Below are positions 6,710 through 63,628 of a stretch of 64,000 bases of DNA, piece by piece. The number at the start of each line of letters is the position of its first letter. Position 1 is the stretch's first letter. The notes beneath the pieces are model-generated. The model made no database searches and was not told where the DNA came from. It saw only the letters and a list, made by a program, of their open reading frames with translations. Made by a program: the position numbers and the translations under genes. Origin of the DNA: Symbiobacterium sp. GTDB lineage: Bacteria; Bacillota; Sulfobacillia; UBA995; UBA9673. Location of the stretch: NCBI GenBank assembly GCA_020725405.1, contig DYFB01000093.1, positions 3,183 through 67,182 of the forward strand, read 5' to 3'.

Positions 6710-9139
6710 GTGTCTATTCTGCCATCCCGGAAGACAGCGGTCGGGGACGGCCTGCGGGCCGCGGCCGCTCTGCTCGTCGTCCTGCTCGTTCTCTGGCCTC
6801 TTTTCGCCCTGGGGCTCTACGACCCCGTGCCCCAGTTCTTCGCCTTCTGGCATGCCGCTCTAGTCCTCGGGCTGGTTTTCATCCTCGCCCTGAGGGAGGA
6901 CCGACCCTTCGTGCTGACCGGCCCCCGGGCGGCCGTGGCGGCCCTCTGGCTCGTTTACGTTCTTTCCACCTTCGTGGCCTCGGTCCCCCGGGCCGCGGTG
7001 CAGGAGGTCATCAAGTACGGCCTGTACGGGGTCGTCTTCCTCTCGGTCTCCGAGCTCGTGCGCTCGACCACGCGGGCGGACGACCTCGCTCCTGAGCCCG
7101 CCTCCGCCCTGCGCCGGCTGGTTTCCCCGCCGGGGCTGGTCCTCGGGGTCTGGGGCGCCGCCGTCATCCTTTCCGTGGCCAGTCTTCTCGCGGCCAGCGG
7201 GGTTCTGCCCTTCGACGTCGTCCGGGCCGGGCGTCTCTACACCTTTCTCCAGTACCCGAACTCGGCCGGCTCGCTGGTCGGGGCCGCCTTCCTGACCGGG
7301 CTCGGCCTCAGGCGGGTCTGGAACGGCCGGGGCCGGGTCGTCGACGCCCTGCTCGCCGCGGGTCAGTGGGCCCTTCTTGTCGTCTTCCTCCTCACGGCCT
7401 CCCGCGGGGCCTGGCTGGTCATGCCCGTGGCCCTGGTCGTGACTTTCTTCCTCTGGCCGCCGGGACGCCGGCTGGCCGCGGTCGGCGACATGGCCGCGAC
7501 GGGCCTCGTGGCCGTCGCGGCCGCGCCTCTTCTCTCCGGAGCCTTCGGCCGGCCGCTCGCCGGCGTCGCGCTCGTCCTCGGCGGCCTGGGCGTGGCCGTC
7601 GCCGCCGGCTGGGTGGCCCGCCGCTTCGCGGCCCTCCCCGCCCGGCGCCAGGCGGCGGTCGTCCTGGGAGTGCTCGTCCTCGTCGGCGGCCTCGGGGCGG
7701 GTCTCCTCGCCACCGGGAACCTGCCGGCGGTCCTGGCCGAGCGGCTGACAAACCTCGACCTTTCCCAGCGGTCGGCCTGGGAGCGGCTGGTCTGGGCAAA
7801 GGACGCGTTCGAGATAGTCAAGGACCACCCCCTCCTCGGCGTCGGGGGCGGGGGCTGGGGCTCGCGCTACTACCAGTACCAGAGCTACGGCTACTTCACC
7901 CGGGAGATACACAACGACTTCATGGACATCTGGGTCGAGACGGGGACGGTCGGGCTCGCCGCTTTCCTCGCCCTCATCGGCGCGTCGGCCTACGTGACCT
8001 GGCGGCTGGCCAGGGCGCGACGTGGGCCGGACCCGGAGGGGTCCGCTCTGGTGGCCGCCCTCGGCGGGGCCTGGGTCATGCTCGTCGTCCACAGCGCTCT
8101 CGACTTCAACCTCGCTCTCGGCTGCGTCGGCATCTACCTCTGGGCCACGTTCGGCACGGTCGACGGCCTGTGGGCGGCCGAGGTCTCCCCCGAGGCCCCC
8201 AGGAGCCGGCCGGCCAGGCGCCGGCGCGGCGCCGACCGTTCCGAGGTAGCGGCGGCCGTCCTCTGGCCGCGCCTGGGCGTGACCATCGTCGTCGCCGCCC
8301 TGGCCCTCCTCTCTCTCAGCCTCTATGGCGGCGCCGCGGCCCGGAGCCAAGCCGGCCGGCTGTTTATGGAGCTTAAGCTGGAGGCCAGCTACGCGGCGTT
8401 CGAGCGGGCGACGAACCTGGACCCCTGGTCGCCCCAGCTCCGGATGGACCGGGCCAGCGCCAGTGAGAAGATGTTCAACGCCACCGGCGATTACGTCTTC
8501 ATCCAGGATGCCCGGAGCCAGATGGAGGCGGCCATCCGCCTCGACCGGTACCACCCGAACCATCACGCTCTCTACGGCTCCTTCGCCCTCCGCTACGGGG
8601 GGATAGAGGTGGCCGTGCAGGCCCTGGAGGAGTCCCTGAGACTCCATCCTTTCGAGCCTAAGCGCTACGAGCAGGTGGCCGAGGTCCACTTCCTGCTCGG
8701 CCGGCACTACCTCACCGGCGGCCAGCGCGACCTCGCTCGCCGCCACCTGGAGCAGTCGGTCGCGGTTCTCGACCGCCTTGCGGCGCAGGCGGCGAAGGTC
8801 CCGGATTATGTCCCCGACCTCCTGAGGCTCCCGGCCCTGACGCCGACCGTGGCCCTCCACACCGGTCAGTCCCTCTCCCTTCTCGGCCGGTGGGACGAGG
8901 CCGCGGACCTCCTGCGCTTCGCCCATGAGACCCAGCTCATGCGCCAGGCCCGCGAGACCGAGGAGTCGGTCCGGGTCAGGAAGATGGAGGCGGCGCTGTG
9001 GCTCGGCCTCGTGGAGGAACGCCGCGGGAACGACGAGGAGGCCCGGACCTACCTGGCCGAGGCCCGGGAGGCCCTCCCCCTGATGGGGGTCATCGTCGAC
9101 CAGCTCCGCCCGCTTCTGGGCCAGGCCGGGACCCCTTAG
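6710..9139 (+). CDS. O-antigen ligase / Wzy_C-family polytopic membrane protein fused to a C-terminal TPR-like domain (candidate O-oligosaccharyltransferase or polymerase)
   Basis: Many TM helices. Wzy_C hallmarks FLTASRGAWLVMPVALV and HNDFMDIWVETGTVGLAAFLALI. The C-terminal ~300 aa are soluble helical repeats (LKLEASYAAFERATNLDPW..., YEQVAEVHFLLGRHY...). Confidence 0.8.
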   Translation: MSILPSRKTAVGDGLRAAAALLVVLLVLWPLFALGLYDPVPQFFAFWHAALVLGLVFILALREDRPFVLTGPRAAVAALWLVYVLSTFVASVPRAAVQEVIKYGLYGVVFLSVSELVRSTTRADDLAPEPASALRRLVSPPGLVLGVWGAAVILSVASLLAASGVLPFDVVRAGRLYTFLQYPNSAGSLVGAAFLTGLGLRRVWNGRGRVVDALLAAGQWALLVVFLLTASRGAWLVMPVALVVTFFLWPPGRRLAAVGDMAATGLVAVAAAPLLSGAFGRPLAGVALVLGGLGVAVAAGWVARRFAALPARRQAAVVLGVLVLVGGLGAGLLATGNLPAVLAERLTNLDLSQRSAWERLVWAKDAFEIVKDHPLLGVGGGGWGSRYYQYQSYGYFTREIHNDFMDIWVETGTVGLAAFLALIGASAYVTWRLARARRGPDPEGSALVAALGGAWVMLVVHSALDFNLALGCVGIYLWATFGTVDGLWAAEVSPEAPRSRPARRRRGADRSEVAAAVLWPRLGVTIVVAALALLSLSLYGGAAARSQAGRLFMELKLEASYAAFERATNLDPWSPQLRMDRASASEKMFNATGDYVFIQDARSQMEAAIRLDRYHPNHHALYGSFALRYGGIEVAVQALEESLRLHPFEPKRYEQVAEVHFLLGRHYLTGGQRDLARRHLEQSVAVLDRLAAQAAKVPDYVPDLLRLPALTPTVALHTGQSLSLLGRWDEAADLLRFAHETQLMRQARETEESVRVRKMEAALWLGLVEERRGNDEEARTYLAEAREALPLMGVIVDQLRPLLGQAGTP

Positions 9140-9195
9140 AGGGCCCGGCAGCGGCGGACCTGAGGTCGGCCGCGTAGGAAGGAGACAGGAGAACC

Positions 9196-10866
9196 ATGCT
9201 TTCCATCGTCGATCTTGTCCCCCACCGACTCGCGGCGGTCCGCCGGCGGTTCACGGCGCGCGCCCTGGCCGCTCTCTTGGTCGTGTCGCTTGCCCTGGCC
9301 CTGCTCGGGACGGCCGCCCTAGGAGCCGGACGGACCGACCGTCCGGCCGCAGGGGTCGACCTTGCCGGCTGGGCCGTTCTCGACGCGGCCCCCGGATGGT
9401 CTCTGGCCTCGGCCGGCGAGACGGCCGGCGGCGCGGCCGGCCCCGTGCCGCCCGCGCTCCCACCGGCCGCCACGGAGGCCGCGAGGGGCCTCCTCACCGA
9501 GGCCTTCGACCTCATCTCCGCGTACTCCCTCCGGACTCCTGACCCCGATGCCCTGGCCAAGGCGGCCATCGAGGGGATGCTCCGCTCCCTCGGGGACCGC
9601 CAGGCCTCCTACTACACGCCCTCCGACTTCGCCCGCTTCATGGCCGAGGTCTCGGGCCGCTACGGGGGTATAGGGGCGAGAGTGGCCATCGAGAATGGCG
9701 CCGTAGTCATCGTCAACACCATCCCGGGGAGCCCGGCCGAGCGGGTCGGGCTTCTCCCCGGCGACACCATCCTGGCCGTGGACGGCCGGAAGACCCAGGG
9801 CCTGGCCCTCGAGGCCGTGGCCGATCTCATCCGCGGGGACCCGGGGACGACGGTGATCCTGACCATCGCCCGTCTCGGCCTCGGCGTCATCCTGGTCGAG
9901 GTGGTCCGGGACGTCATCGAGCTCATCTCGGTCGAGAGCGGGATGCTCGACGACCGGGTGGGCTACATGCGCATCCTGTCCTTCGACGACAACACCGGCC
10001 GGGAGGTTCGGGCCGCCCTGGCCGCCCTGACCGCGGCCGGCATGGAAGGGCTCGTCCTGGACCTGCGCGACAACCCCGGGGGCTACCTCGGGGAGGTCCT
10101 GGCGGTGGCCGAGAACTTCGTTCCCGTCGGGAACCCCGTGGTCTACGTCGACCGCGGGGCTCGGGGCCTCCAGGCCCTTCGCTCCTATGGCTGGGCTCTC
10201 GACCCCATGGGACCCCTTCCCGAGCCGGTCCACCCCCAGTGGCCGGGGCCGACGGTGGTCCTCGTCAACGGCCGGTCAGCGAGCGGGGCGGAGATTCTCG
10301 CCGGAGCCCTGCAGGACTGGAACCTCGCCGTCCTCGTCGGGAGCCAGACCTACGGCAAGGGGTCCGTCCAGACGATCTTCGAGCTCAACAACCACGGCGG
10401 GCTCAGGATTACCACGGCCTGCTACACCTCGGCTCGGGGCCGGGCTATCGAGGGGGTGGGCCTGACCCCTGACGTGATCGTGGAGGAGCCCCCGCCGCCG
10501 GAGCCGATCTTCCAGCTCATCCTTCTCCCCACCCGGTGGACCTACCGGGTGGGGCACGCGGGGAGCGACGTCCTCCTCCTCCAGGCCCGGCTGAGGCAGC
10601 TCGGCTATGATGCGGGACCGGAGGACGGCGTTTTCGGAAAGGAGACCGAGGCCGCGCTCAAGGCCTTCGAGCGCCGGGCCGGGCTCGTCGTTGACGGCGT
10701 CGCCGACCCCGCCACGTGCCGGGCCCTCAACACCGCGCGGCTCCAGGACCATCCGGGCGGGGAGAGCGCGAGCCCGCCCGGGACTCCGGGAGGGGCCCCG
10801 CCGGCCGACCCCGTGCTCGATAGGGGTCTCGAGGTCCTCCGCGGCCTCCTCGGCGGCGGCTCGTAG
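9196..10866 (+). CDS. ctpA: Carboxyl-terminal processing protease (S41 family) with PDZ and a C-terminal peptidoglycan-binding domain
   Basis: PDZ region IPGSPAERVGLLPGDTILAVDG. S41 catalytic region NGRSASGAEILAGALQD..GSQTYGKGSVQT. PG_binding_1-like LLLQARLRQLGYDAGPEDGVFGKETEAALKAFE. SD aggaaggag upstream. Confidence 0.9.
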   Translation: MLSIVDLVPHRLAAVRRRFTARALAALLVVSLALALLGTAALGAGRTDRPAAGVDLAGWAVLDAAPGWSLASAGETAGGAAGPVPPALPPAATEAARGLLTEAFDLISAYSLRTPDPDALAKAAIEGMLRSLGDRQASYYTPSDFARFMAEVSGRYGGIGARVAIENGAVVIVNTIPGSPAERVGLLPGDTILAVDGRKTQGLALEAVADLIRGDPGTTVILTIARLGLGVILVEVVRDVIELISVESGMLDDRVGYMRILSFDDNTGREVRAALAALTAAGMEGLVLDLRDNPGGYLGEVLAVAENFVPVGNPVVYVDRGARGLQALRSYGWALDPMGPLPEPVHPQWPGPTVVLVNGRSASGAEILAGALQDWNLAVLVGSQTYGKGSVQTIFELNNHGGLRITTACYTSARGRAIEGVGLTPDVIVEEPPPPEPIFQLILLPTRWTYRVGHAGSDVLLLQARLRQLGYDAGPEDGVFGKETEAALKAFERRAGLVVDGVADPATCRALNTARLQDHPGGESASPPGTPGGAPPADPVLDRGLEVLRGLLGGGS

Positions 10867-10889
10867 GGCCCGAGCCGGGGGGAGGAACT

Positions 10890-12125
10890 GTGGCCGGACC
10901 ATCTGAGCGGCTCGCCGTCCTGACCGTCGTGGCCAACCGGTCGTACGGGGGAGCTGAGCGGCACATCGTCGACCTCTCGGGCGAGCTCGTCGCACGGGGA
11001 CACCGGGTGGGGTGCCTTTTCCCGAGCTCCACGGGCATAGGCGCCATTCTCGACCCCGGGGTGGAGCCCTTCGAAGTGCGTGAGCTCCGGCCTCCTTATC
11101 GCTTCACGGCCGAGTTCCCCAAGGTCATCCGGGCCTTCGGTCCGGACGTCGTCCACCTCCACAGCCCGAGGGCGACCTTCCTGGGCCGGCTGGTCCTCGG
11201 GGCCCTCCCCCGCCGAGCGGGGCGGCCGGCTATCGTCTCCACTGCCCACGGTTGGATACCACGGCGCCTGGCCCTTCGGCCCCTCTACGAGGCGGCCTAC
11301 CTCCTCACGGCCCGCCTCGACGACGTGACCATCGCCGTCTCGCGCGATACGGCCCGGCGCTTCGGACGCTGGGCTCCGCGCCTCAGGACGGTTCCGAACG
11401 GGATAACCCGCGGGGCCGCACTCGGTGAGTACACGGCCTCGCCCGAACGGGGAGTGGTGCGCCTGGGCTTCGTCGGGCGCATCACTCAGGAGAAGGGCTT
11501 TCCTATGGCCCTCGCCGCGTGGGCGGCGGCCCGGGATATCCTGGCGGTCGGAGCCGCGGCCGCTCGTCCCCGGGGCGGGGCGGGTGGCGGCGGATCGCTC
11601 GATGTGGAGCTCCACGTCTATGGTGACGGGCCGCTCTACCGGCAGGCCCGCCGGGCGGCGGCCCGGCTGGCCCGGAGGGGCGCCGGGCGGCGCCACGGCC
11701 GCCCGGTGGCGGCGAGCGGCGGCGTGCACTTCCACGGGTGGGTTCCCCCGGCCGAAATGCCGCGCGTCCTGTCCGGCCTGACGGCGCTCCTCCTCACCTC
11801 TCGCGAGGAGGGTTTGCCCTACGTGGCTCTCGAAGCCATGACCGCCGGCTGCCCGGTGATAGCCACCGCGGTCGGAGGCCTCCCGGAGCTCATCGAGGAC
11901 GGGCGGACGGGCTGGCTCATCCCTCCCGGCGACGCGGAGCGTGCGGCCGAGCTCATCGTCACCCTGGCCACTCGCCCGGACCTCGCCGGGAAGGTCAGGC
12001 GGGCGGCCTGGGAGCGGACGAGGGCTTACTCGGTAGAGGCCATGGTGGACGGAGTCGAAGAGGCCTACCGTCTGGCTCTCCGGCGGCGAGAGGAGGTGCC
12101 GCACAATCAGCGCGGCGCGTCCTGA
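10890..12125 (+). CDS. Glycosyltransferase family 4 (GT-B, retaining)
   Basis: C-terminal GT4 motif EGLPYVALEAMTAGCPVIATAVGGLPELIEDGRTGWLIPPGD. SD gggaggaa before the GTG. Confidence 0.85.
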   Translation: MAGPSERLAVLTVVANRSYGGAERHIVDLSGELVARGHRVGCLFPSSTGIGAILDPGVEPFEVRELRPPYRFTAEFPKVIRAFGPDVVHLHSPRATFLGRLVLGALPRRAGRPAIVSTAHGWIPRRLALRPLYEAAYLLTARLDDVTIAVSRDTARRFGRWAPRLRTVPNGITRGAALGEYTASPERGVVRLGFVGRITQEKGFPMALAAWAAARDILAVGAAAARPRGGAGGGGSLDVELHVYGDGPLYRQARRAAARLARRGAGRRHGRPVAASGGVHFHGWVPPAEMPRVLSGLTALLLTSREEGLPYVALEAMTAGCPVIATAVGGLPELIEDGRTGWLIPPGDAERAAELIVTLATRPDLAGKVRRAAWERTRAYSVEAMVDGVEEAYRLALRRREEVPHNQRGAS

Positions 12126-12210
12126 CGGCTCGAACACTGCGGCAACCGGGGCCCGGCCGGGGCGCCCGGGCCGAGGCCGCCAGGCCAGGGGCTGGCAGGG
12201 GCTCTTCCTC

Positions 12211-13650
12211 TTGGCCGTGGCCCTGGGCGATCTCGCCACCATCCACGCGGGCTTCCTCACCGCCTTCGTCCTTCGGTTCCACGGGACCCTCCCGGTGGCG
12301 AACTTCAAGGCCTACCTGCGCTCGGCCCCGGGCCTGACCCTTCTGGCCCTGGTCCTCCTCCTCTCCTACGGCCTTTACGACCTCCGCCCCCGGAGCTGGA
12401 GAACGGCGGCCTCCGGCGTGGTTGCGGCCGTCACTCTGCTCACGGCTTTCGGCATGGCCCTGAGCTTCGTCCTCCGGGCCTTCGCCGTCCCGCGAAGCGT
12501 CTTCCTCCTGGCTTGGGTGCTCAACATCCTGCTCCTCCTGGCCTGGCGCAACGGGGTCTGGCGGCTGGCCGTCCGGTCCTGGGGCCCCGAGGGGGCGGTG
12601 GTCGTCGGCCCGGCCGGCGAGGCCGAGGAGTTCGCCCAGAGGTTCTCCGCACCGCGGCGGACCGGCTACCAGGTGACGGCCGTGACCCTGACCGAGAGTC
12701 GGGAGGGACCCCTCCCGTGGTTCCCGGACGCAGCGGCCGCCCTGGATGAGGACGAAGGGGTCGGTCGGCCGGTCGACGCGGCCGGTTTCAGGGCGAGCGG
12801 CGGCCTCCCCGTCTATCCCCTGGCCGCCCTGCCCGCCCTCCTCCGCGGAGAGGCTGGAGGGCCGCCACCTGACGTCCTGGTCGTCACCCCGTCGACGGCC
12901 GGAGAGGACAAGGCCAGGGTCGCCGCGCTGGCCGCGCTCGCCGGGGCCAGACTCCTCATCGTCCCGAGCTACCGCGACCTTCTCGTCCTTGACACGAGGA
13001 TGACGCAGATAGACGACACCCTGGCCTTCGAGGTCGGGCCTTCCGGGATCCCGGCCCACCTTGCCTGGGCCAAGCGCCTGATGGATATCGGCTTCGCCCT
13101 CGCCGGTCTCGCTCTGACCCTTCCCCTCTATCCCCTGGTGGCCGCGGCGGTGGCGCTCTCCTCGCCCGGACCGGTCTTCTACCGCCAGGCGCGGGTGGGT
13201 CTCGGGGGCCGCGTCTACACGATGTGGAAGTTCCGGACCATGGTGGCCGACGCCGAGGCCGCGACAGGCGCGGTCCTGGCCAAGGCCGATGACCCCCGGG
13301 TCACCCCGGTCGGCCGGGTGCTCCGTCGGTTCCGCCTCGATGAGCTCCCGCAGCTCCTGAACGTCCTGGCCGGATCCATGTCCGTCGTCGGGCCCCGACC
13401 CGAGCGCCCGGAGTTCGCCCGGGAGTACGCCCGGATGGTGCCCTATTACGAACACCGGCATCATCTAAAGCCCGGCCTTACCGGGCTCGCCCAGCTCTCG
13501 GTCAGGTACGACACTCCGGTCGAGGAGAAGCTGCGCTACGACCTCCTCTACGCTAAACGCTACTCCCTGCTCCTCGACCTCAGGATAATCTTCTTGACGG
13601 CCAAGGTTGTCCTCATGGGGGAGGAGGCCCATTGGACTCCGGAGAGCTAG
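12211..13650 (+). CDS. Undecaprenyl-phosphate hexose-1-phosphate transferase (WbaP/WsaP-like priming polyprenyl glycosylphosphotransferase)
   Basis: N-terminal TM block. Bac_transf catalytic domain FYRQARVGLGGRVYTMWKFRTMVADAE...RVLRRFRLDELPQLLNVLAGSMSVVGPRPERPEF. Confidence 0.9.
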   Translation: MAVALGDLATIHAGFLTAFVLRFHGTLPVANFKAYLRSAPGLTLLALVLLLSYGLYDLRPRSWRTAASGVVAAVTLLTAFGMALSFVLRAFAVPRSVFLLAWVLNILLLLAWRNGVWRLAVRSWGPEGAVVVGPAGEAEEFAQRFSAPRRTGYQVTAVTLTESREGPLPWFPDAAAALDEDEGVGRPVDAAGFRASGGLPVYPLAALPALLRGEAGGPPPDVLVVTPSTAGEDKARVAALAALAGARLLIVPSYRDLLVLDTRMTQIDDTLAFEVGPSGIPAHLAWAKRLMDIGFALAGLALTLPLYPLVAAAVALSSPGPVFYRQARVGLGGRVYTMWKFRTMVADAEAATGAVLAKADDPRVTPVGRVLRRFRLDELPQLLNVLAGSMSVVGPRPERPEFAREYARMVPYYEHRHHLKPGLTGLAQLSVRYDTPVEEKLRYDLLYAKRYSLLLDLRIIFLTAKVVLMGEEAHWTPES

Positions 13651-16122: not shown

Positions 16123-16194
16123 CGACCCGGCCGCGCTCGCTTCACCAGACCTACACCGGAGGAGTTCGCTCCGGACGCGCCGAATAATCGGCCC

Positions 16195-18980: not shown

Positions 18981-19139
18981 GGGCGTTGACCTCCCCTGTG
19001 GGCCGGCCGGGAGGACGGCCCGCGCCGCGCACGGCCGGGCCGGACCTGACCCGCGCCTATAATGCCCCCTGACCTGCGGCGAGAACACGGGCCCTGCCCG
19101 GACCCGGGTCCGCACCACCCGGCCGTCGGCCTGAAGGAA

Positions 19140-20057: not shown

Positions 20058-20223
20058 TGCCTTTCCCTCCCTGGGATAATTCGGACATCAAAGCACTGGC
20101 AATACTTACACTTCTCGACCCGGAACACCTTCTTCCGTCACCGTCAGGGCCACGGGCTGTCTCTTTCGGCAGGGACAACCAGACCGGCTGTCGAAAGGGG
20201 CCAGCGAACTGAGGGGTGCTGCT

Positions 20224-21399
20224 TTGAGAATCGGCCTGGCGGTGGGTAAGCCGTTCGGCGGCCTGGGAGCCACGGACCTTCTTGAGTATTCCCTCGCTCT
20301 CGTTGCCCTTGGCCACGAGGTAGTTGTGGCCTGCCCGAGCTCGGCGGTGGACTCGGCCAGGCTCCCCGCGGGGCTGAGCATCCTGGCCGCCGGGATGGCG
20401 ATCTCCGGCAAGAAGAACCCGATCCCCTCCACCGTGCTGGCCTGCCGCCTCGCAGGCCTGCTGCGGACGGCAGGCGGCGATCTGGACGTCCTCCACGAAC
20501 CGGCTTTCCCGGAGTTTGGCTTCCGCCTGGCCCCGCTCGTGCGGGTGCCCTCCGTTCTTGACGTCCGGACCCTACCTGTGAGCTCCGCCGTGGCCCAGCG
20601 GCTGGGAGCGGCGATCCTGCGGGTGCAGCGGAGGCTCTACACCCGGACAGCCGTCATTGATCGGGCTCTCTCACTCACGATCTTCGGTGGATCGTATCCG
20701 GAATTCCCGCTTCCGATCAACACGGATCGCTTCCGCCCGGGCCGGAACGAGCAACTCCGGAACCAGCTCGGGGTCGGGCCACAAGACCTCCTGGGCGTTT
20801 ACGTCGGCTCCATGGCGCCGGTGCGCGGCCTTCCCGTGCTCCTTCAGGCTATCCGGACGGCTACTCGCGAGGGGGCCGACTTCAGATTCCTCTTGGTCGG
20901 GGGGGGCAGGGCGGACCTCCAAGCCCTGGCCGTCGAGGTGGACCGCCTGGGATTGGGCGACAGAGTCCGGTTGGAGGGCTACGTGGATTACGATAAGGTT
21001 CCGGGCTACCTCCAGGCGGCGGACTTCGCTGTCGCCTACGTTCCCCGCCGACCGCAGTTCGAGAGCCAGCCGCCCATAAAGACTCTCGAGTACCTGGCCG
21101 CGGGTCTCCCGACCGTGGCCACGAACACCTCCGGCAATCTTCGTTTCATTCATGACGGGGTTAACGGCCTGGTGAGCGAAGATCGGCCTCAAGCCCTGGG
21201 CGAGGCGCTAGCCCGGGTGGTCAAGGACCCGGAGCTCAGGGCGAGGCTCAGCTCTAACGCGCGGGCATCAGTGATGGAATGGGACGCAAAGCGAGTGGCG
21301 GCCGATCGTCTGGTGCCCGTCTACCGCGAGGCTATCGCTTCGTTCAGGAAGACGGCGCCGCAACCCTCTTCAGGAGCTGCCAGGCAAAGAGGACCATGA
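20224..21399 (+). CDS. Glycosyltransferase family 4
   Basis: GT4 C-terminal motif EYLAAGLPTVATNTSGNLRFIHDGVNGLV. TTG start after gagggg. Confidence 0.85.
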   Translation: MRIGLAVGKPFGGLGATDLLEYSLALVALGHEVVVACPSSAVDSARLPAGLSILAAGMAISGKKNPIPSTVLACRLAGLLRTAGGDLDVLHEPAFPEFGFRLAPLVRVPSVLDVRTLPVSSAVAQRLGAAILRVQRRLYTRTAVIDRALSLTIFGGSYPEFPLPINTDRFRPGRNEQLRNQLGVGPQDLLGVYVGSMAPVRGLPVLLQAIRTATREGADFRFLLVGGGRADLQALAVEVDRLGLGDRVRLEGYVDYDKVPGYLQAADFAVAYVPRRPQFESQPPIKTLEYLAAGLPTVATNTSGNLRFIHDGVNGLVSEDRPQALGEALARVVKDPELRARLSSNARASVMEWDAKRVAADRLVPVYREAIASFRKTAPQPSSGAARQRGP

Positions 21400-22168
21400 A
21401 CCGCGGATTGTGTATGAGGTAGCGTCGCCAGAGGCGTCTGGGTTCGGTAAGGAGCCGAAAGAGCCACTCGAGCCCGCTCTCCCGCATCCATCTTGGCGCC
21501 TGAGGCTTGGATCCGGTCAGGAAGTCTAAGGCTGCACCCACCCCGAGCATGACGGCGGAGATGCTACCCACGTGGGCCGCCATCCACCGTTCCTGCTTCG
21601 GGCAACCTAACCCGACGAACAGGATTCGGGCGCCGGAAGACTGGATTCTCTCGACGAGGTCGCCGTCCTCTTGGGCCGTCAGCGGTCGGAAAGGAGGGCT
21701 TTCAGCGAAGGCGATAGTGAGGCCGGGGAAGCGGTGAGAGAGAGTTGTCACCAACCGCTCGAGCACCTGTGGGTGCCCGCCGTAGAGGCCTATAGGCACC
21801 CCGTCCGCGGCGGCGAGGTCGCAGACAGCCAGGACGAGTTCAGGGCCGTAAACCCGGGTGGCATGGCCTACTCCCAGGCATCTCAGGGCCCATACCAGGG
21901 GCATACCGTCCGGGGTCACCAATTCGGCTTTATTGACGATTTCCCGGAAGTCCCGGCTATCCACGGCTTCCATAACCATATGGACGTTGGCGACGCAGAT
22001 GTAGCGGGACTCGTGCCGTCCGGCCAGCGACAGGACCTCACGGGCGGTCGCGGAGTAGCTGGTTGCGTCAACCCGCGTTCCCAGGACGTAGCGAGAGGAG
22101 ACCGGTTCGCGTCCCGGCTGGAGTTGTCCGTCTGGCCCGAACCTCGACTCTTTTGGGGCTGCGCTCAT
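21344..22168 (-). CDS. WecG/TagA/CpsF-family glycosyltransferase (GT26)
   Basis: ILFVGLGCPKQERWMAAH and LEWLFRLLTEPRRLWRRYLIHNPRFMVL are GT26 signatures. Its 3' end overlaps the convergent GT4 by 56 nt. Confidence 0.85.
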   Translation of the reverse strand: MSAAPKESRFGPDGQLQPGREPVSSRYVLGTRVDATSYSATAREVLSLAGRHESRYICVANVHMVMEAVDSRDFREIVNKAELVTPDGMPLVWALRCLGVGHATRVYGPELVLAVCDLAAADGVPIGLYGGHPQVLERLVTTLSHRFPGLTIAFAESPPFRPLTAQEDGDLVERIQSSGARILFVGLGCPKQERWMAAHVGSISAVMLGVGAALDFLTGSKPQAPRWMRESGLEWLFRLLTEPRRLWRRYLIHNPRFMVLFAWQLLKRVAAPSS

Positions 22169-22229
22169 GGCTGTTCCTCTCTTAGAAACCGAAGTGCGGT
22201 CATTCTGGGTGATGGAGACAGGCGGCGCG

Positions 22230-23228
22230 TCAGGAGTCCCTCTTCCTGTTGTTGCGCTCCCTCGACCGTCTTACCGCAAGATCGTAGATGTCTTGCAGCG
22301 TCTCGTAGTTCTGCTCGGCGCCGTACTTGGCCAGAAACCGCAGGCGCGCCGTCTTCCCCATCTCAGCGACATCGGCGGGGTGCGAGAAGACCCATCGAAC
22401 CCTATCGGCGAGGTCTTCTGAGTCTCCCGGTTCACAGAGGAGACCAGTCACGCCGTCCTCCACTATCTCGGCCATGGCCCCCAATCGGCTGGCAACGACA
22501 GGCAACCCTGCGGCGAAGGCCTCTACGAGAACCCTGAGGAAGGTCTCATACCAAACGGAAGGCGCGATAAGGTTCTTCGCCTCTTTCATCAGGGACTGGA
22601 CTTGCAGGGGCGTGACGGGTCCCAGGAGATGGACGGCCGGCCTTCCGGCCCTCCATTCCCGCAGCCTCCCCTCCAGCGGGCCGGTTCCGGCTATCTTGAG
22701 GGGAACCCTCGCCCCCAGCTTGTCCCACGCCCTCATCAAAGTCTCCAGCCGCTTCTCCGGCGATAGACGACCGACAAAGAGGGCAAACCCCCCTCCACGG
22801 ACCCCGGGACCCGGGTCCGGATGCACGAAGTTCGGCTTGACGACGATCCGATCCGGCGGGAGCCCTCCAGCGACAAATTTGCCCCTCCCGTGCTCCGTCA
22901 GAGCTATGTAGACATCGATCATCCTGGTCCACGTGCCGAAAAGAGGATGCACGGCGACCATACCAGCAGCCACGGCCGTGGCCGCTCCGCTCTCCCGGTA
23001 GCAGCGATGCAGCAGGGCCGGCCAAGCAACAGACCGGCCCACGCAGTCCTCGCAGGGTCGATACTGCCTGAGAAGCATAGCTCCGGGGCAGAGAAGGCGG
23101 AAGTTGTGGAGAGTCTGCACTACCGCCACCCCTGCTTCGCGGCACGCGTAGTAGGCCGACGGCGAGATGAGGGGAAAGGTGTAAACACAGTGGTTCCCTT
23201 TTCGGTTGACACGAGCACCCGAGGACAA
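22230..23228 (-). CDS. Glycosyltransferase family 4, apparently N-terminally truncated (possible pseudogene)
   Basis: C-terminal motif FAAGLPVVASRLGAMAEIVEDGVTGLLCEPGD and mid-domain HNFRLLCPGAML..PCEDC. The only start is a TTG with no SD. The frame is closed upstream. About 40-60 aa of the usual GT4 N-terminus are missing. Confidence 0.6.
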   Translation of the reverse strand: MSSGARVNRKGNHCVYTFPLISPSAYYACREAGVAVVQTLHNFRLLCPGAMLLRQYRPCEDCVGRSVAWPALLHRCYRESGAATAVAAGMVAVHPLFGTWTRMIDVYIALTEHGRGKFVAGGLPPDRIVVKPNFVHPDPGPGVRGGGFALFVGRLSPEKRLETLMRAWDKLGARVPLKIAGTGPLEGRLREWRAGRPAVHLLGPVTPLQVQSLMKEAKNLIAPSVWYETFLRVLVEAFAAGLPVVASRLGAMAEIVEDGVTGLLCEPGDSEDLADRVRWVFSHPADVAEMGKTARLRFLAKYGAEQNYETLQDIYDLAVRRSRERNNRKRDS

Positions 23229-23460
23229 GGACCGCCTGAAAACTCGCGAGGATCTCCGTCCTGAATTCGCGCAGCCGATCAGCTCGGTAGGCCCCGAAAA
23301 GGTATAGCAGAAGGAGCAAGGCGGCGGTGTAAACGGGGAGGACCCACTCCGGCCCCACCCGGAAGAGCTCGCGCCTGGGTAGCCACACCTCCCCGTACCT
23401 CAGGTAGGCCCCGAGAATCCAGGCCAGGAGGGCTGCGCCTGCGTCTATGGCGGCGGTCAT
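23196..23460 (-). pseudogene. 5' fragment of a second WbaP-like priming phosphotransferase (N-terminal TM region only), out of frame with and running into the truncated GT4
   Basis: MTAAIDAGAALLAWILGAYLRYGEVWLPRRELFRVGPEWVLPVYTAALLLLLYLFGAYRADRLREFRTEILASFQAVLVL is colinear with the N-terminus of the 12211 gene (MAVALGDLATIHAGFLTAFVLRFHG..LLALVLLLSYGLYDLRPRSW). The frame then degenerates into junk. No Bac_transf domain follows. Confidence 0.5.
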
Positions 23461-23605
23461 GGAGCGGTAGAGCATCAGGCTTGAACGAAAGGACACGTCT
23501 TCGCGGGGCTCCCGGATAGCGGAATCGCCTGGACTCGTCACATCCCTATGGGACAATAGCTCTTTCGGCAAGGCTCGCGGGAAGTCCTCCCAAATCGACC
23601 GGTCC

Positions 23606-24883
23606 TTACTTCCTCCGACCGGTCTCCGTTTGGGATTTCGACCCAAGCCGACAAACCAGCGGAAGGCCCAGCGCCGCAGCAAGCATTGCGGCGTAGCGCA
23701 TGTCCCAGAGGGTAAAGTCGACCAGGCCCTGCACAAGAAAGCCGGCCAGAGCCGCGGCCACTCCCGCCGCGATGGGCTGCGTCCGCGCGAGCCCTCTCAC
23801 CTCTCTCACAAGCGCGAGAGCCAACATGGCAGCCGCCAGGCAGCCGGCGAGCCCCAATCCGGCTAGAAGCTCGAGATAGAGGCTGTGACTGTGGTACACG
23901 GTCAGGCCCAGCGTCTCCTGCAGGACCCCTCCCGGGTTCATATACCCTACGCCCATCCCTGGCCTTGCGGTGAAGAGGTCTATCGCGCCGCGCCATACGG
24001 CCAGACGGAAGCTGTTGGTGGCGTAGCTGGGGTCGAGGAAGCGCCCGATGGGCCGACCGGCAAGCGTAAGGACGAAGGCAAGGGGCACGGACAGAGCCAG
24101 AGCAAGACCGACCGCCACGTACCGCGCGCGAGGACCCAGACGAGCGCCCCCGAGAAGCCAGGCGAGAACCACGGTTACGGCCACGAGGGAAAGAAAGGCT
24201 CCCCGCGATCCGGTCATCCCGATGGCCGCAAACCCCAGGACGACCGTGCCGGCGCAGGAAGCGATGCGCGCCCAGCCCCGCGTGATGGACCATAGCAGGC
24301 CGACCGTGACCGCCACGGCGAGAGATATCGACGCTCCAAGGACGGCATCGTGACCAAAAGGGGCTGCGACCCGGACGACGCCGATGCAGTACTGCCAGTA
24401 CGTGAGGGTTAGAATGCTCGCGAGGCTCACGGCGACCATGCCGCCGAACGTTCGGATGTCGCTCTCGTTATCCAGAGAGGCCAGAGTCAGGCAGAAGAAC
24501 CCGAATCCAAGGGCCAGCTCGGCCACCTTCCTCAGGCCATACCAGGCCTCTGGCGCACTTACTAGTGATGCGAACGCGACGGCGACGAATACCGCGTACC
24601 ACAAAAGGACACTTCGGCCTCGCTCCCGAAGGCGCCGCAGGCGGCCGGTTACCAGCGCGGTCAAAAGCAGAAGAGGAACGATAACGACGGTTGAGGAGAG
24701 GGGTAACCCCTCCCCCCTGAGGGCGAAGGTCGCCCGCCACTCCAAGGGGGACAGGAAGAAGGCGATACCCGTAGCCAGGGCTGGTCGCTTTGTGTAGAGC
24801 AGGGCCAGTCCGAGGGCTGCCACCCCGGCCGTTATAAGAAACGACCCGGGTGAAGCCTCAATAGGCAAAAGCGTTGGATCCAA
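23606..24883 (-). CDS. Third O-antigen ligase / Wzy_C-family membrane protein
   Basis: Motifs GMTGSRGAFLSLVAVTVV, NSFRLAVWRGAIDLF and HSHSLYLELLAGLGLAG. About 10-12 TM helices. Confidence 0.8.
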   Translation of the reverse strand: MDPTLLPIEASPGSFLITAGVAALGLALLYTKRPALATGIAFFLSPLEWRATFALRGEGLPLSSTVVIVPLLLLTALVTGRLRRLRERGRSVLLWYAVFVAVAFASLVSAPEAWYGLRKVAELALGFGFFCLTLASLDNESDIRTFGGMVAVSLASILTLTYWQYCIGVVRVAAPFGHDAVLGASISLAVAVTVGLLWSITRGWARIASCAGTVVLGFAAIGMTGSRGAFLSLVAVTVVLAWLLGGARLGPRARYVAVGLALALSVPLAFVLTLAGRPIGRFLDPSYATNSFRLAVWRGAIDLFTARPGMGVGYMNPGGVLQETLGLTVYHSHSLYLELLAGLGLAGCLAAAMLALALVREVRGLARTQPIAAGVAAALAGFLVQGLVDFTLWDMRYAAMLAAALGLPLVCRLGSKSQTETGRRK

Positions 24884-25124
24884 CGCTCACCCACCGTCCC
24901 GGCGGTGCGAACTCCCCTGGCCTGGAGACAATGCAACAGCGGGTAGTTCAGCGGATGGCGGAGACATCCTGCCTCAGGGGCCGGATCTTGGTTCCGGCCG
25001 GCTCATACGGAGGAACCCCGGAGGTGTCCGCGAAACTTGTCGGCGATCTCTCCGCTGACTACCTACCGCTCCTGGCTTTCCTCGCCGGGCAGCTCCTGCC
25101 GGGACGGTGAGGAGGAAAGGCTAG

Positions 25125-26171
25125 ATGCCGAAGGCGCTCATCACCGGGATAACCGGTCAAGACGGCTCCTATTTGGCCGAGTTGCTCTTGAGTAAGGGTT
25201 ATGAAGTTCACGGGATAATCCGCCGCGCCTCCATCTTCAACACGGAGCGGATTGACCACCTCTACGTGGACCCCCACGAGCCGCAAGCCCGGCTGTTCCT
25301 GCACTACGGGGACCTGACCGAAGCGACCGTCCTTCGGCGCATCCTCGAGCGCGTTCAGCCCGACGAGGTTTACCATCTTGGGGCGCAGTCCCACGTCAAG
25401 GTCTCCTTCGAGGAGCCGGAGTATACCGGGGACGTGGTGGCCCTGGGAACCCTGAGGCTGCTGGAGTCGCTTCGCGACTACTCCGCTCGAACGGAACGCC
25501 CGGTGCGGATATATCAGGCCGGTTCGTCGGAGATGTTCGGCAGTTCTCCTCCGCCGCAGAACGAAAGGACGCCCTTTCACCCGCGAAGTCCTTACGCCGC
25601 AAGCAAGGTCGCCGCTTACTGGTACGCCGTGAACTACCGCGAAGCATACGGGATGTTCATCTCGAACGGCATCCTCTTCAACCATGAGTCGCCTCGCCGG
25701 GGGGAGACCTTTGTCACCCGCAAGATCACCAGAGCGGCGACCCGGATCAAGCTCGGGCTGCAGGAGAAGCTCTACCTCGGCAACCTCGAGGCCAGGCGGG
25801 ACTGGGGGTTCGCCGGGGACTTCGTCGAAGCGATGTGGCTGATGCTCCAGCAGCCGGAGCCCGACGACTTTGTAATCGCCACGGGAGAGTCCCATTCGGT
25901 GCGCGAGTTCGTCGAGGCCGCCTTCTCCCGGCTCGATCTCGACTGGCAACGACATGTGGAGATCGACCCCCGGTACCTGCGACCGGCCGAAGTGGACTAC
26001 TTGCAGGGGGACGCAACCAAGGCCGCAGCCGTTCTCGCCTGGCGGCCGAGGGTCACCTTCGAAGGACTGGTCGAGATGATGGTTGAGCATGACCTCGAGC
26101 TCGCCCGACAAGAGCTCACTCTGCGTAATGCCGGCCATCGCTCCACCCAGCGAGGGGCGGTCACCAGGTGA
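25125..26171 (+). CDS. gmd: GDP-mannose 4,6-dehydratase
   Basis: [34 protein letters not shown] and full-length GMD colinearity. SD ggaggaaagg. Confidence 0.95.
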
Positions 26172-27181
26172 AGCGCGATGGAAACGCCCCCCGACACCAG
26201 ACCATCGGGCTTGAGGACAAGGTCTATATAGCTGGACACCGCGGGCTCGTGGGTTCGGCGCTGACCCGGCGTCTCACCCGGGAAGGGTTCAAGAACCTTA
26301 TCCTCCGAACGAGACAAGAGCTGGACCTTGCCGACCAAAGGGCCGTGGACGCCTTCTTCCGGAAGGAGCGCCCTGATTACGTCTTCCTGGCCGCGGCCAG
26401 GGTGGGAGGGATCCTGGCTAACCACACTCGACCGGCCGAATTCATTATGGAAAATTTGGCCATAGCGGTTAACGTCATTGGCGCCGCCCACCGCTCCGAA
26501 GTGAAGAAGCTCCTCTTTCTCGGCAGCTCGTGCATCTACCCCAGGCACTGCCCCCAGCCGATAAAGGAGGACTACCTTCTGACCGGGTCACTGGAGCCCA
26601 CCAACGAGCCCTACGCGGTGGCCAAGATTGCGGGCATCCATCTCTGCCAGGCGTACAACCGGCAGTACGGTACCCGCTACATATGCGCGATGCCGGCCAA
26701 CCTCTACGGCCCCGGCGACAACTTCGATCTCGAGACGAGCCACGTCCTGCCCGCGCTCATCCGCCGGTTCCATGAAGCCAAGACGGCAGGAGCGGCCGCC
26801 GTGACCGTGTGGGGAACCGGAACCCCCCGCCGCGAGTTCCTCCATGTGGATGACCTTGCCGACGCCTGTCTCTTCCTCATGAGGGAGTACGACGACCCGG
26901 CGATTATCAACGTGGGCGTGGGCGAGGACCTCTCCATCCGGGAGCTCGCCGAGCTGGTTGCCGAGGTGGTGGGCTATCAGGGCCGCCTCGTCTTCGATCC
27001 TTCGAAGCCTGACGGGACGCCCCGCAAACTCCTCGACGTCTCCCGACTGAGCCGGCTTGGCTGGAGAGCGAGCATCCCGCTCAGGGAGGGCATCGAGCAG
27101 ACCTATCGCTGGTACCTGGCCAATTTCGCCGGTCACGCGCCCCATTCGGCCGGTAGCCGTGAGGATACGGTGAAAGGCTAG
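26168..27181 (+). CDS. fcl: GDP-L-fucose synthase (GDP-4-keto-6-deoxy-D-mannose 3,5-epimerase/4-reductase)
   Basis: [19 protein letters not shown]...[16 protein letters not shown]. Start overlaps the gmd stop. Confidence 0.95.
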
Positions 27182-32773: not shown

Positions 32774-32787
32774 GCTGACGACACGAT

Positions 32788-37823: not shown

Positions 37824-37863
37824 CCGCTCCCGAACCTTGTCCCGCACGGAGGTAAGACCCAGA

Positions 37864-48100: not shown

Positions 48101-48119
48101 GAGGGAGCCCCCGACAGCC

Positions 48120-63623: not shown

Positions 63624-63628
63624 ACCGC

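What the first reader, a model, noticed from the sequence alone, without database searches (positions are those of the whole stretch)
6710..27181. Surface-glycan (probably S-layer glycosylation) locus immediately downstream of the SLH genes, with three Wzy_C proteins and no recognisable flippase or ABC exporter
The block holds three O-antigen-ligase-family proteins (one fused to TPR), three GT4s, one GT26, a WbaP-like priming transferase, an epimerase, PMM, GalU, Gmd and Fcl. Gmd and Fcl imply a fucose-containing glycan. GalU and PMM supply hexose-1-phosphates. Its position right after the S-layer-like genes mirrors the slg loci of Geobacillus and Paenibacillus, where an O-antigen-ligase-like O-OTase (WsaB) transfers the glycan to the S-layer protein. 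There are more ligase-family genes than expected, and no Wzx or Wzm/Wzt gene lies in the 20 kb.
Basis: inference. Interest (0 to 1): 0.6.

Follow-up and report, generated by a model that had tools for sequence, protein, structure and literature searches.

The report
S-layer protein glycosylation locus, composite
Next to three tandem cell-surface (SLH) protein genes, an uncultured high-GC Firmicute carries a gene set that most likely attaches sugars to those proteins; it resembles known S-layer glycosylation loci but has no sugar exporter gene nearby and includes a partly decayed, horizontally acquired block.

Summary
The gene content is as described. There are three WaaL/Wzy-fold membrane proteins, a WbaP/WcaJ-type priming transferase, GT4s, a GT26, an epimerase, PGM/PMM, GalU, Gmd and Fcl. 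No Wzx/MurJ or ABC-2 exporter lies anywhere in the 64 kb.

The 20 kb is not one unit.
1. **Conserved core.** SLH genes, Wzy_C-TPR, GT4, priming transferase and epimerase recur in four related metagenomic contigs, where SLH genes alternate with up to three Wzy_C-TPR paralogues. The Wzy_C-TPR protein aligns full-length with Paenibacillus proteins in ABC-dependent slg-type clusters, the WsfB architecture. Its TPR domain is predicted to face outward.
2. **Inserted gene.** The 526-aa Wzy_C gene is specific to this lineage. Its distant relatives lie in Wzx/Wzy/Wzc clusters, so it is probably a polymerase.
3. **Island.** Bases 19.1–27.2 kb have lower GC and are missing from one relative. The island holds a near-orphan Wzy_C, a remnant of its own priming transferase and a 5'-truncated GT4.

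The best reading is O-glycosylation of SLH proteins with the flippase encoded elsewhere. Of 80 wider-family loci, 39 have an ABC-2 permease and 5 a MurJ-like flippase within 10 kb. None of the five close-clade loci does. This is a new variant of a known kind, of moderate interest and with no experimental test yet.

The parts
20..1609 (+). 3' part of SLH paralogue a. The full gene is 705 aa on contig L001, with a signal peptide and an SLH trimer. Candidate acceptor protein.
   Evidence: It is 36-39% identical to paralogues b and c.
1863..4043 (+). SLH paralogue b, 726 aa, with a signal peptide and an N-terminal SLH region. Candidate acceptor protein.
   Evidence: Pfam SLH 61.2 bits. It is 62% identical to paralogue c.
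4270..6531 (+). SLH paralogue c, 753 aa. Candidate acceptor protein.
   Evidence: Pfam SLH 51.8 bits.
6710..9139 (+). WsfB-like Wzy_C-TPR membrane protein, 809 aa. Proposed O-oligosaccharyltransferase acting on SLH proteins.
   Evidence: Wzy_C 56.1 bits plus TPR. AF2 model pLDDT 88.7. WaaL 7tpg_B is the only membrane-protein match. The TPR domain is placed outside by one extra TM helix after an Arg-rich loop. Full-length homology to a Paenibacillus slg-cluster protein. Synteny with SLH genes is conserved.
9196..10866 (+). C-terminal processing protease (S41 + PDZ + PG_binding_1). It is a conserved neighbour whose role in the system is unknown.
   Evidence: Orthologues at 42-44% identity occur in L082, L084 and L087.
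10890..12125 (+). GT4 glycosyltransferase (core). It would add the second sugar.
   Evidence: Orthologues at 48-51% identity lie directly after Wzy_C-TPR in all close relatives.
12211..13650 (+). Polyprenyl-phosphate hexose-1-phosphate transferase (WbaP/WcaJ type). It is the initiating enzyme.
   Evidence: Bac_transf 216.6 bits. TIGR03025 381.6 bits, above the cut-off. Orthologues at 59-63% identity.
13632..15212 (+). Divergent Wzy_C/WaaL-fold protein, 526 aa, inserted between the priming transferase and the epimerase. Probably a Wzy-type polymerase.
   Evidence: It is absent from the close relatives. Its distant homologues lie in Wzx/Wzy/Wzc clusters.
15202..16122 (+). NAD-dependent sugar epimerase (GalE-like), part of the core.
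   Evidence: Orthologues at 50-57% identity.
16195..17538 (+). Orphan solute-binding lipoprotein (SBP_bac_1/8). It is a conserved neighbour of unknown role.
   Evidence: Orthologues at 67-69% identity in L082, L084 and L087.
17535..19118 (-). Phosphoglucomutase/phosphomannomutase.
   Evidence: It is 66% identical to its counterpart in L084.
19140..20057 (-). GalU. It is the first gene of the lower-GC island.
   Evidence: TIGR01099 342.9 bits. GC3 is 0.78, against 0.88-0.92 in the flanking genes.
20224..21399 (+). GT4 glycosyltransferase (island), intact.
21344..22168 (-). GT26 (WecG/TagA/CpsF family) glycosyltransferase (island).
   Evidence: NCBIfam EpsA-type 152.5 bits, TarA 110.3 bits, both below cut-off.
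22230..23200 (-). GT4 (island) that lacks about 70-80 N-terminal residues. Probably a pseudogene.
   Evidence: Only profile positions 79-157 of the N-domain match. The mechanical TTG start lies inside the transferase remnant, in another frame.
23218..23475 (-). Remnant (about 86 codons) of the island's own priming transferase. The catalytic domain is deleted.
   Evidence: 60-71% identity to the N-terminus of the L089 transferase, E 3e-41 and 1.5e-44.
23606..24883 (-). Near-orphan Wzy_C protein, 425 aa (island). Polymerase or ligase of the acquired cluster.
   Evidence: Wzy_C 60.6 bits. Only 3 representatives reach E<=1e-30 among 1.84 billion. The 76% homologue lies beside a transposase-like ORF and an intact transferase on L089.
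25125..26171 (+). GDP-mannose 4,6-dehydratase (Gmd).
   Evidence: TIGR01472 529.4 bits.
26168..27181 (+). GDP-L-fucose synthase (Fcl).
   Evidence: NF047922 511.6 bits.
32779..37440 (+). SLH x3 + subtilase (S8), 1553 aa. A further SLH-anchored protein and possible acceptor.
   Evidence: A similar SLH-S8 gene lies upstream of Wzz and Wzy_C-TPR in L088.
55771..58121 (+). TagO/WecA-like GlcNAc-1-P transferase and UDP-GlcNAc 2-epimerase (MnaA). Linkage-unit genes relevant to the rival SCWP reading.

Best explanation
The conserved core is a protein O-glycosylation system for SLH-anchored surface (S-layer-type) proteins. It comprises 6710-9139, 10890-13650 and 15202-16122, together with the three upstream SLH genes.

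Proposed steps:
1. The WbaP/WcaJ-type transferase puts a hexose-1-phosphate on undecaprenyl phosphate.
2. The core GT4 adds a second sugar. UDP-Glc and UDP-Gal come from PGM/PMM, GalU and the epimerase.
3. A flippase encoded outside the window moves the lipid-linked glycan to the outer face.
4. In this lineage the inserted Wzy-type protein (13632-15212) probably polymerises it there.
5. The WsfB-like Wzy_C-TPR protein transfers it to Ser, Thr or Tyr of the secreted SLH proteins. Its extracytoplasmic TPR solenoid would hold the protein substrate.

The lower-GC block at 19.1-27.2 kb is a horizontally acquired fragment of a second Wzy-type cluster. It has lost its own priming transferase and the 5' end of one GT4. 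At most it modifies or extends the glycan, for example with fucose, through the core transferase.

**Shown here:** gene identities, folds, synteny, the island's composition shift and its decay.
**Inferred:** the acceptor, the order of steps, polymerisation and the location of the flippase.
For: **Family and architecture.** Wzy_C plus TPR. The model is confident and has a WaaL-like membrane domain. Full-length homology at E 5e-42 to a Paenibacillus protein. That protein lies divergent to Wzm, PMT_2, GT2s and Wzt, with GalU downstream. WsfB of P. alvei has the same Wzy_C plus TPR architecture, and wsfB, galE and galU are separate transcripts there (PMC2943079).

**Topology.** Three helices follow the catalytic loop. 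Then come an Arg-rich loop (6 K/R in 16 residues) and an extra TM helix, which puts the TPR domain outside.

**Synteny.** Wzy_C-TPR, GT4, transferase and (in three of the four contigs) epimerase are conserved in L082, L084, L085 and L087, at 41-63% identity overall. SLH genes alternate there with up to three Wzy_C-TPR paralogues. In 80 distant loci, 9 of 66 have an SLH gene directly upstream and 3 of 70 directly downstream. These 12 account for 12 of the 18 SLH ORFs in all flanks.

**No peptidoglycan-ligation genes.** No LCP ligase, CsaB or Wzz occurs in the window.

**Polymerase reading of 13632-15212.** It has the WaaL/Wzy fold. Its homologues sit in Wzx/Wzy/Wzc clusters.

**Island status.** GC is 0.64-0.65 against about 0.70, and GC3 is 0.72-0.80 against 0.88-0.92. 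The island is not present after PMM in L084. It contains a transferase remnant and a truncated GT4. The closest Wzy3 homologue lies next to a transposase-like ORF on a 61%-GC contig from the same metagenome.
Against: - No experiment shows that these SLH proteins are glycosylated.
- Sequence alone cannot separate Wzy_C-family ligases, polymerases and protein O-transferases.
- I could not compare directly with the WsfB or WsaB sequences. I compared only with Paenibacillus homologues in slg-type clusters.
- In the Symbiobacteriia MAG L088 the homologue follows a Wzz gene, which suits a polymerase.
- No flippase was found, so the pathway as drawn is incomplete in the available sequence.
- The GT26 together with TagO and MnaA at 55.8-58.1 kb would also fit a cell-wall polymer.
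- The S41 protease and SBP are conserved in the locus and the model does not explain them.
Confidence: 0.55

Rival explanations
1. The locus makes a secondary cell-wall polymer (the ligand of the SLH domains) or another wall-linked polysaccharide. On this reading the Wzy_C proteins are polymerases and ligases for a lipid-linked polymer, and the polymer ends up on peptidoglycan, not on protein.
For: - SLH proteins need a wall polymer, and a position next to SLH genes would make sense for it.
- A GT26 (TagA family) lies in the block. TagO-like and MnaA genes lie at 55.8-58.1 kb.
- A peptidoglycan-binding S41 protease is a conserved neighbour.
- From my own knowledge, untested here: Wzy_C-family proteins (WpaA and WpaB) are implicated in Bacillus anthracis SCWP synthesis.
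- L088 has Wzz next to the homologue.
Against: - No CsaB pyruvyltransferase and no LCP ligase occur anywhere in the 64 kb.
- The GT26 lies in the acquired, partly decayed island that is not present after PMM in L084. An essential anchor polymer should not depend on such an island.
- The GT26 scores higher against EpsA-type than TarA-type models.
- The priming enzyme of the core is a hexose-1-P transferase, not TagO.
- Paenibacillus homologues of the Wzy_C-TPR protein sit in slg-type clusters. P. alvei SCWP papers assign SCWP synthesis to other enzymes (CsaB, MnaA; titles and abstracts listed).
Confidence: 0.2
2. It is a conventional Wzx/Wzy-dependent exopolysaccharide or capsule cluster that happens to lie beside SLH genes. 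One Wzy_C would be the polymerase and the others accessory or redundant. Wzx and the chain-length regulator would be encoded elsewhere.
For: - A priming transferase, GT4s, a GT26 and Wzy-type proteins are the standard parts list.
- Homologues of 13632-15212 lie in canonical Wzx/Wzy/Wzc EPS clusters.
- The L089 cluster around the Wzy3 homologue looks like an EPS cluster.
Against: - It does not explain the conserved interleaving of SLH genes with Wzy_C-TPR paralogues.
- It does not explain the outward-facing TPR domain.
- No Wzx, Wzz/Wzc, Wza or LCP gene lies in the 64 kb.
- In close relatives the core has only one GT4 and one transferase, which is very little for an EPS repeat unit.
Confidence: 0.15
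3. The system is largely a relic. The island is decaying, the flippase is missing, and the core is no longer functional in this organism.
For: A transferase remnant and a truncated GT4 are present. No exporter is found in the window.
Against: - All core genes are intact with high GC3 (0.81-0.90) and overlapping or tightly spaced reading frames.
- The core is conserved at 41-63% identity in four other contigs, which implies purifying selection.
- The 11 kb of the 75-kb source contig outside the window, and the rest of the genome, were not seen.
Confidence: 0.07

Closest known systems
P. alvei CCM 2051T slg locus and its O-oligosaccharyltransferase WsfB
   Same: - A Wzy_C domain with a C-terminal TPR.
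- Full-length homology to Paenibacillus proteins of slg-type clusters: 24% identity, E 5e-42.
- GalU and an epimerase are associated.
- A Gal/Glc-1-P type priming transferase.
- The target class is SLH-anchored surface proteins (PMC2943079).
   Different: - The P. alvei and Paenibacillus clusters carry Wzm/Wzt and build the chain in the cytoplasm. Here there is no ABC transporter, and Wzy-type genes are present instead.
- Here the transferase gene is directly downstream of the SLH genes and occurs as paralogue arrays in relatives.
- Identity is low, and the WsfB sequence itself was not available for comparison.
G. stearothermophilus NRS 2004/3a slg cluster (WsaB with separate TPR protein WsaA)
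   Same: A Wzy_C-family predicted O-transferase working with a TPR module, a WsaP-type priming transferase, and an S-layer protein as target.
   Different: - TPR is a separate protein there and is fused here.
- That cluster is ABC-transporter dependent and rhamnose-based.
- No sequence comparison was made here.
C. difficile Ox247 (SLCT-11) S-layer glycosylation locus
   Same: A glycosylation locus inserted next to the S-layer gene, with an initiating transferase, several GTs and a 'protein ligase' (PMC6254364).
   Different: It contains an ABC transporter and a rhamnose pathway. The S-layer there is anchored by CWB2 domains, not SLH (CWB2 anchoring is from my own knowledge).
WaaL O-antigen ligase (PDB 7tpg)
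   Same: It is the best solved-structure match for the membrane domains of both modelled proteins. TM-scores normalised to the target are 0.57 and 0.62. The family-invariant Arg and His positions lie in and around the large outer loop.
   Different: WaaL transfers to lipid A-core in Gram-negative bacteria and has no TPR. Identity is 16-17%.
Wzx/Wzy/Wzc-dependent EPS clusters
   Same: The two non-TPR Wzy_C proteins, the priming transferase and the GT4s match this parts list. Distant homologues of 13632-15212 sit in such clusters.
   Different: Wzx, Wzc/Wzz and any outer export or ligation component are missing from the 64 kb.

Membership tests
Wzy_C (PF04932) / WaaL-fold membrane proteins | Pfam Wzy_C match above the gathering score | tested here: met
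   6710-9139 scores 56.1 bits and 23606-24883(-) scores 60.6 bits, against a cut-off of 31.7.
Wzy_C (PF04932) / WaaL-fold membrane proteins | The same criterion applied to 13632-15212 | tested here: inconclusive
   It scores 24.1 bits, below the 31.7 cut-off. However, all 19 homologues carry Wzy_C. hhalign to the Wzy_C-TPR family gives 98.75% probability. The best PDB match of the model is WaaL, E 1.3e-5. Membership is therefore accepted at superfamily level.
WsfB-type S-layer O-oligosaccharyltransferase | Wzy_C membrane domain fused to a C-terminal TPR domain | tested here: met
   The architecture is described for WsfB in PMC2943079.
WsfB-type S-layer O-oligosaccharyltransferase | Homology to the transferase of slg-type clusters | tested here: met
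   24% identity over residues 24-799, E 5e-42, to L037:9911-12367. That gene's neighbours are Wzm, PMT_2, GT2s, Wzt and GalU. The WsfB sequence itself was not available.
WsfB-type S-layer O-oligosaccharyltransferase | Genomic association with the S-layer or SLH target gene | tested here: met
WsfB-type S-layer O-oligosaccharyltransferase | Transfers a lipid-linked glycan to Tyr, Ser or Thr of the S-layer protein | not testable with these tools
   This needs genetics or biochemistry.
ABC-transporter-dependent slg cluster (G. stearothermophilus, P. alvei, C. difficile type) | Wzm/Wzt exporter in the cluster | tested here: not met
   The only ABC_tran hit (48051-48902) sits with an SBP_bac_3/BPD_transp_1 importer set, and no gene hits ABC2_membrane. 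An ABC-2 HMM finds 39 of 80 distant loci but nothing in the window or the close-clade loci.
Wzx/Wzy-dependent pathway | Priming phosphoglycosyltransferase plus a Wzy-type polymerase candidate | tested here: met
Wzx/Wzy-dependent pathway | MOP-family flippase (Wzx or MurJ-like) and a chain-length regulator | tested here: not met
   Neither occurs in the 64 kb. The rest of the genome was not available.
SCWP biosynthesis locus (SLH ligand) | CsaB pyruvyltransferase, an LCP ligase, and TagO/TagA/MnaA linkage-unit enzymes acting together | tested here: not met
   No PS_pyruv_trans or LytR_cpsA_psr hit occurs in the window. TagO-like and MnaA genes are present but lie 30 kb away. The only GT26 lies in the acquired island.

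The most novel reading that the evidence does not exclude
In this uncultured high-GC Bacillota clade, SLH surface-protein paralogues have co-diversified with dedicated WsfB-like transferase paralogues as interleaved gene arrays. On this reading each transferase serves its own SLH protein. The clade has also dispensed with any cluster-encoded exporter, so the lipid-linked glycan would be flipped by a housekeeping flippase or by a translocation route not yet recognised. If so, this would be the first S-layer glycosylation route in Gram-positive bacteria that is not ABC-transporter dependent, and one with protein-specific transferases.
Probability: 0.12. Interest if true: 0.7.

Novelty: new variant of a known kind. 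Interest (0 to 1): 0.4.

Why it matters
The three characterised Firmicute S-layer glycosylation loci considered here (Geobacillus, Paenibacillus, C. difficile SLCT-11) use an ABC transporter.

If confirmed, this clade would show three new things:
- an S-layer O-glycosylation system built around a minimal core of transferase, GT4 and WsfB-like enzyme;
- Wzy-type polymerisation added in one lineage;
- arrays of transferase paralogues paired with SLH paralogues.

That would widen the known design space of bacterial protein O-glycosylation. It would also supply thermophile-type, TPR-bearing O-transferases for glycoengineering. The partly decayed island is a small, clear example of how such loci are remodelled by horizontal transfer and deletion.

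Tried and rejected
- **Promoter and terminator scans** of 1-33 kb were at chance level.
- **Sequence searches of the three Wzy_C proteins against PDB** gave nothing. The profile search was swamped by TPR hits. Fold searches were needed instead.
- **Exact-sequence look-ups** did not recover the 75-kb source contig. I therefore could not read beyond the window except for 1.7 kb upstream (L001), and I obtained no taxon name. The placement as 'Bacillota related to Symbiobacteriia-type lineages' rests on two things: the housekeeping and sporulation gene content (SpoIID, MreB) and gene order from rho to murA in the window, whose fit to Bacillota is judged from my own knowledge, and the names of distant hits.
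- **The primary WsfB paper** (Zarschler 2010, PMC4397588) is not held. My statement that wsfB knock-outs abolish SpaA glycosylation is from memory only.
- **A correction to my own recall.** I first remembered C. difficile SLCT-11 as Wzx-dependent. The paper shows it is ABC-dependent.
- **Is 13632-15212 a disguised flippase?** Rejected, because it has the WaaL/SEDS-like fold and not a MOP or ABC fold.
- **Is the GT26 TagA?** Unresolved. It scores below cut-off for both EpsA-type and TarA-type models.
- **Pseudogene search.** Blastx of all intergenic gaps found only the transferase remnant and no exporter remnant.

Full report
**Observation.** The window is about 70% GC, so I called genes by third-position GC and then scanned them against Pfam and NCBIfam.
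- Three Wzy_C-type membrane proteins: 6710-9139 with a C-terminal TPR, 13632-15212, and 23606-24883(-).
- A WbaP/WcaJ-type priming transferase (12211-13650; TIGR03025 381.6 bits).
- GT4 genes at 10890-12125, 20224-21399 and 22230-23228(-).
- A GT26 at 21344-22168(-) and an SDR epimerase at 15202-16122.
- A PGM/PMM at 17535-19118(-), GalU at 19140-20057(-), Gmd at 25125-26171 and Fcl at 26168-27181. GalU, Gmd and Fcl score above the curated cut-offs.

The middle Wzy_C scores only 24.1 bits against a cut-off of 31.7. Other evidence supports it. All 19 of its distant homologues carry the domain. Its family aligns to the first family with 98.75% hhalign probability. The best solved-structure match of its AF2 model (pLDDT 77.8) is the WaaL ligase 7tpg_B, followed by SEDS proteins. 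It is therefore not a disguised flippase.

Upstream lie three tandem SLH paralogues of 705, 726 and 753 aa with signal peptides. Paralogues b and c are 62% identical, and paralogue a is 36-39% identical to them.

No gene in the whole 64 kb hits a MOP flippase, an ABC-2 permease, Wzz, an LCP ligase or CsaB. HMMs seeded from verified MurJ-like and ABC-2 ORFs also find nothing in any window ORF.

**The 20 kb is composite.** The Wzy_C-TPR protein has 25 metagenomic homologues at 38-50% identity. I retrieved contexts for four of them (L082, L084, L085, L087).

These contexts share a core: SLH genes, then Wzy_C-TPR, GT4 (381-413 aa), priming transferase, epimerase (in three of the four; L084 has none between the transferase and the S41 gene), usually another SLH gene, the S41 protease, the binding protein and PGM/PMM. 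In these relatives the SLH genes alternate with one to three Wzy_C-TPR paralogues. L085, for example, reads SLH, Wzy, Wzy, SLH, Wzy, GT4, transferase, epimerase, SLH.

Three things set the window apart.
1. The S41 gene sits between Wzy_C-TPR and GT4.
2. The 526-aa Wzy_C gene is inserted between the transferase and the epimerase, with overlapping stop and start codons. None of the relatives has it.
3. After PGM/PMM comes a block running from GalU to Fcl. Its GC is 0.64-0.65 and its GC3 is 0.72-0.80, against 0.88-0.92 in the flanking genes. L084 has a deacetylase and a GH3 gene at that position instead.

**The island is partly decayed.** On the minus strand at 23218-23475 lie the first ~86 codons of a priming transferase. 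They are 60-71% identical to the N-terminus of an intact transferase on contig L089 (E 3e-41 and 1.5e-44). The catalytic domain is gone.

The remnant abuts the third GT4. That GT4 matches only positions 79-157 of the N-domain profile and has no start codon of its own. A single deletion most simply explains both truncations.

The island's Wzy_C is almost an orphan. Only three representatives out of 1.84 billion reach E<=1e-30. Its one close homologue (76% identity) lies on L089, a 61%-GC contig from the same metagenome. That homologue sits next to a transposase-like ORF, an intact transferase, Ugd, an epimerase, a GT4 and a further Wzy_C.

**What the Wzy_C-TPR protein is.** The AF2 model is confident (pLDDT 88.7, pTM 0.88). 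Its only membrane-protein match in the PDB is WaaL. The C-terminal 270 residues form a TPR solenoid resembling the TPR domains of OGT/SPY and AspH (substrate-binding, from my own knowledge) and of PilF.

After the large conserved loop (residues 336-402, with invariant R359, D365, a G-G-G-W run and H401) come three helices. Next is an Arg-rich loop with 6 K/R in 16 residues, then one extra TM helix. By homology to WaaL and by the positive-inside rule, this places the TPR domain outside the cell.

A scan of one genome per species returned 80 loci. Many are from Paenibacillus, and others from Thermincola, Phosphitispora, Symbiobacterium and Dethiobacter.

The Paenibacillus protein in L037 aligns over residues 24-799 at 24% identity, E 5e-42. 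It shares the motif PLLGVGGGGW..Y.QYQ..Y..R.hHN. It sits divergent to Wzm, a PMT_2 enzyme, GT2s, Wzt and a methyltransferase, with GalU downstream. That is the ABC-dependent slg cluster type.

The review PMC2943079 describes the P. alvei O-transferase WsfB as Wzy_C plus a C-terminal TPR. It also says wsfB, galE and galU are transcribed separately.

Using an SLH HMM built from the window, 9 of 66 distant loci have an SLH gene ending within 1.2 kb upstream on the same strand. Three of 70 have one directly downstream. Together these are 12 of the 18 SLH ORFs in 1.44 Mb of flanks. The link between SLH genes and this transferase family therefore extends well beyond the close clade.

**Export.** Across the 80 distant loci, 39 have an ABC-2 permease within 10 kb and five have a MurJ-family flippase.
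- In L009 the flippase follows the Wzy_C-TPR gene after a short gap.
- In L029 the order is Wzy_C-TPR, epimerase, transferase, MurJ-like, GalU, PMM. This is the closest layout to the window.

In the window's clade, none of the five loci has either exporter. The missing exporter is therefore a feature of the clade. It is not an accident of this window's limits, at least within -8 and +55 kb here and within the retrieved flanks (up to 10 kb on each side) in the relatives.

**Roles of the other two Wzy_C proteins.** Distant homologues of 13632-15212 lie in canonical EPS clusters with Wzx, a Wzz-ParA kinase, a transferase and GT4s. This favours a polymerase role. Its tight integration in the core operon suggests that this lineage polymerises the core glycan. 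The island's Wzy_C is the polymerase or ligase of a cluster that has lost its own initiating enzyme.

**Mechanism proposed.**
1. The transferase and the core GT4 build a short undecaprenyl-diphosphate-linked glycan from UDP-hexoses.
2. A flippase encoded elsewhere moves the glycan to the outer face.
3. The inserted Wzy-type protein may polymerise it.
4. The Wzy_C-TPR enzyme transfers it to the secreted SLH proteins, which its outward-facing TPR domain would bind.

Gene identities, folds, synteny and island decay are shown here. The acceptor, the order of steps, the polymerisation and the flippase are inferred.

**Rivals.**
- **A wall-polymer (SCWP) locus.** A GT26 is present, TagO and MnaA lie at 55.8-58.1 kb, and L088 has Wzz next to the homologue. 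Against it, CsaB and LCP are absent, the core is primed by a hexose-1-P transferase, and the GT26 lies in the dispensable island.
- **A plain EPS cluster.** This does not explain the SLH/transferase arrays or the external TPR domain.
- **A relic.** This is unlikely for the core, whose genes are intact and conserved.

**Comparison and novelty.** The locus works like the slg loci of P. alvei, G. stearothermophilus and C. difficile SLCT-11, all of which are ABC-transporter dependent. It differs in having no exporter in the cluster, in carrying Wzy-type genes, and in the paralogue arrays seen in relatives. I file it as a new variant of a known kind. Interest is moderate, because the flippase may simply be encoded elsewhere and nothing has been tested experimentally.

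Noticed in passing
window 23218-23475 (-) and 22230-23228 (-): A remnant of a priming transferase (about 86 N-terminal codons, 60-71% identical to the L089 transferase) is fused out of frame to a GT4 that lacks its first 70-80 residues. One deletion probably removed both.
   Followed up: yes
L082, L084, L085 (close relatives): SLH genes alternate with one to three Wzy_C-TPR paralogues (41-49% identical to the window protein). This suggests paired diversification of surface proteins and their putative transferases.
   Followed up: partly
window 9196-10866 and 16195-17538: An S41/PDZ/PG_binding_1 C-terminal processing protease and an orphan SBP_bac_1/8 lipoprotein with no permease or ATPase partner are conserved within the locus in relatives. 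The protease orthologues are 42-44% identical and the lipoprotein orthologues 67-69%. Their role is unexplained.
   Followed up: partly
L009 12284-13993; L029 10268-11884; L055 14777-16348: MurJ-family flippase genes lie inside or directly beside Wzy_C-TPR clusters in some distant Bacillota. PMT_2 GT-C proteins lie directly downstream in L023, L025 and L030.
   Followed up: partly
L089 162-1370 (-): A 402-aa ORF with no Pfam hit resembles, from my own reading of the sequence, an IS-type transposase. It lies next to the 76% homologue of the island Wzy_C, on a 61%-GC contig from the same metagenome as L001.
   Followed up: partly
window 32779-37440: A 1553-aa protein has three SLH domains and a subtilase domain. 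A similar gene lies upstream of Wzz and Wzy_C-TPR in the Symbiobacteriia MAG locus L088, which also carries NeuB-type nonulosonic acid genes.
   Followed up: no
window 37702-40089 and 39945-42092: Two large overlapping ORFs: a 795-aa protein with a C-terminal CN_hydrolase domain, and a 715-aa protein with a partial GH125 (alpha-mannosidase) match. Both have long N-terminal regions with no family match.
   Followed up: no
window 52849-54687: A Sua5/TsaC threonylcarbamoyl-AMP synthase is fused to a low-molecular-weight phosphatase domain in one 612-aa ORF.
   Followed up: no
window 63510-63624 (+): A SAM riboswitch (RF00162, 72.3 bits) lies downstream of the MreB gene, near the end of the window.
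   Followed up: no
L001 80-1105: Upstream of the first SLH gene lies a 341-aa ORF with no signal peptide or SLH region. It is 27-29% identical to the C-terminal half of the SLH paralogues.
   Followed up: partly
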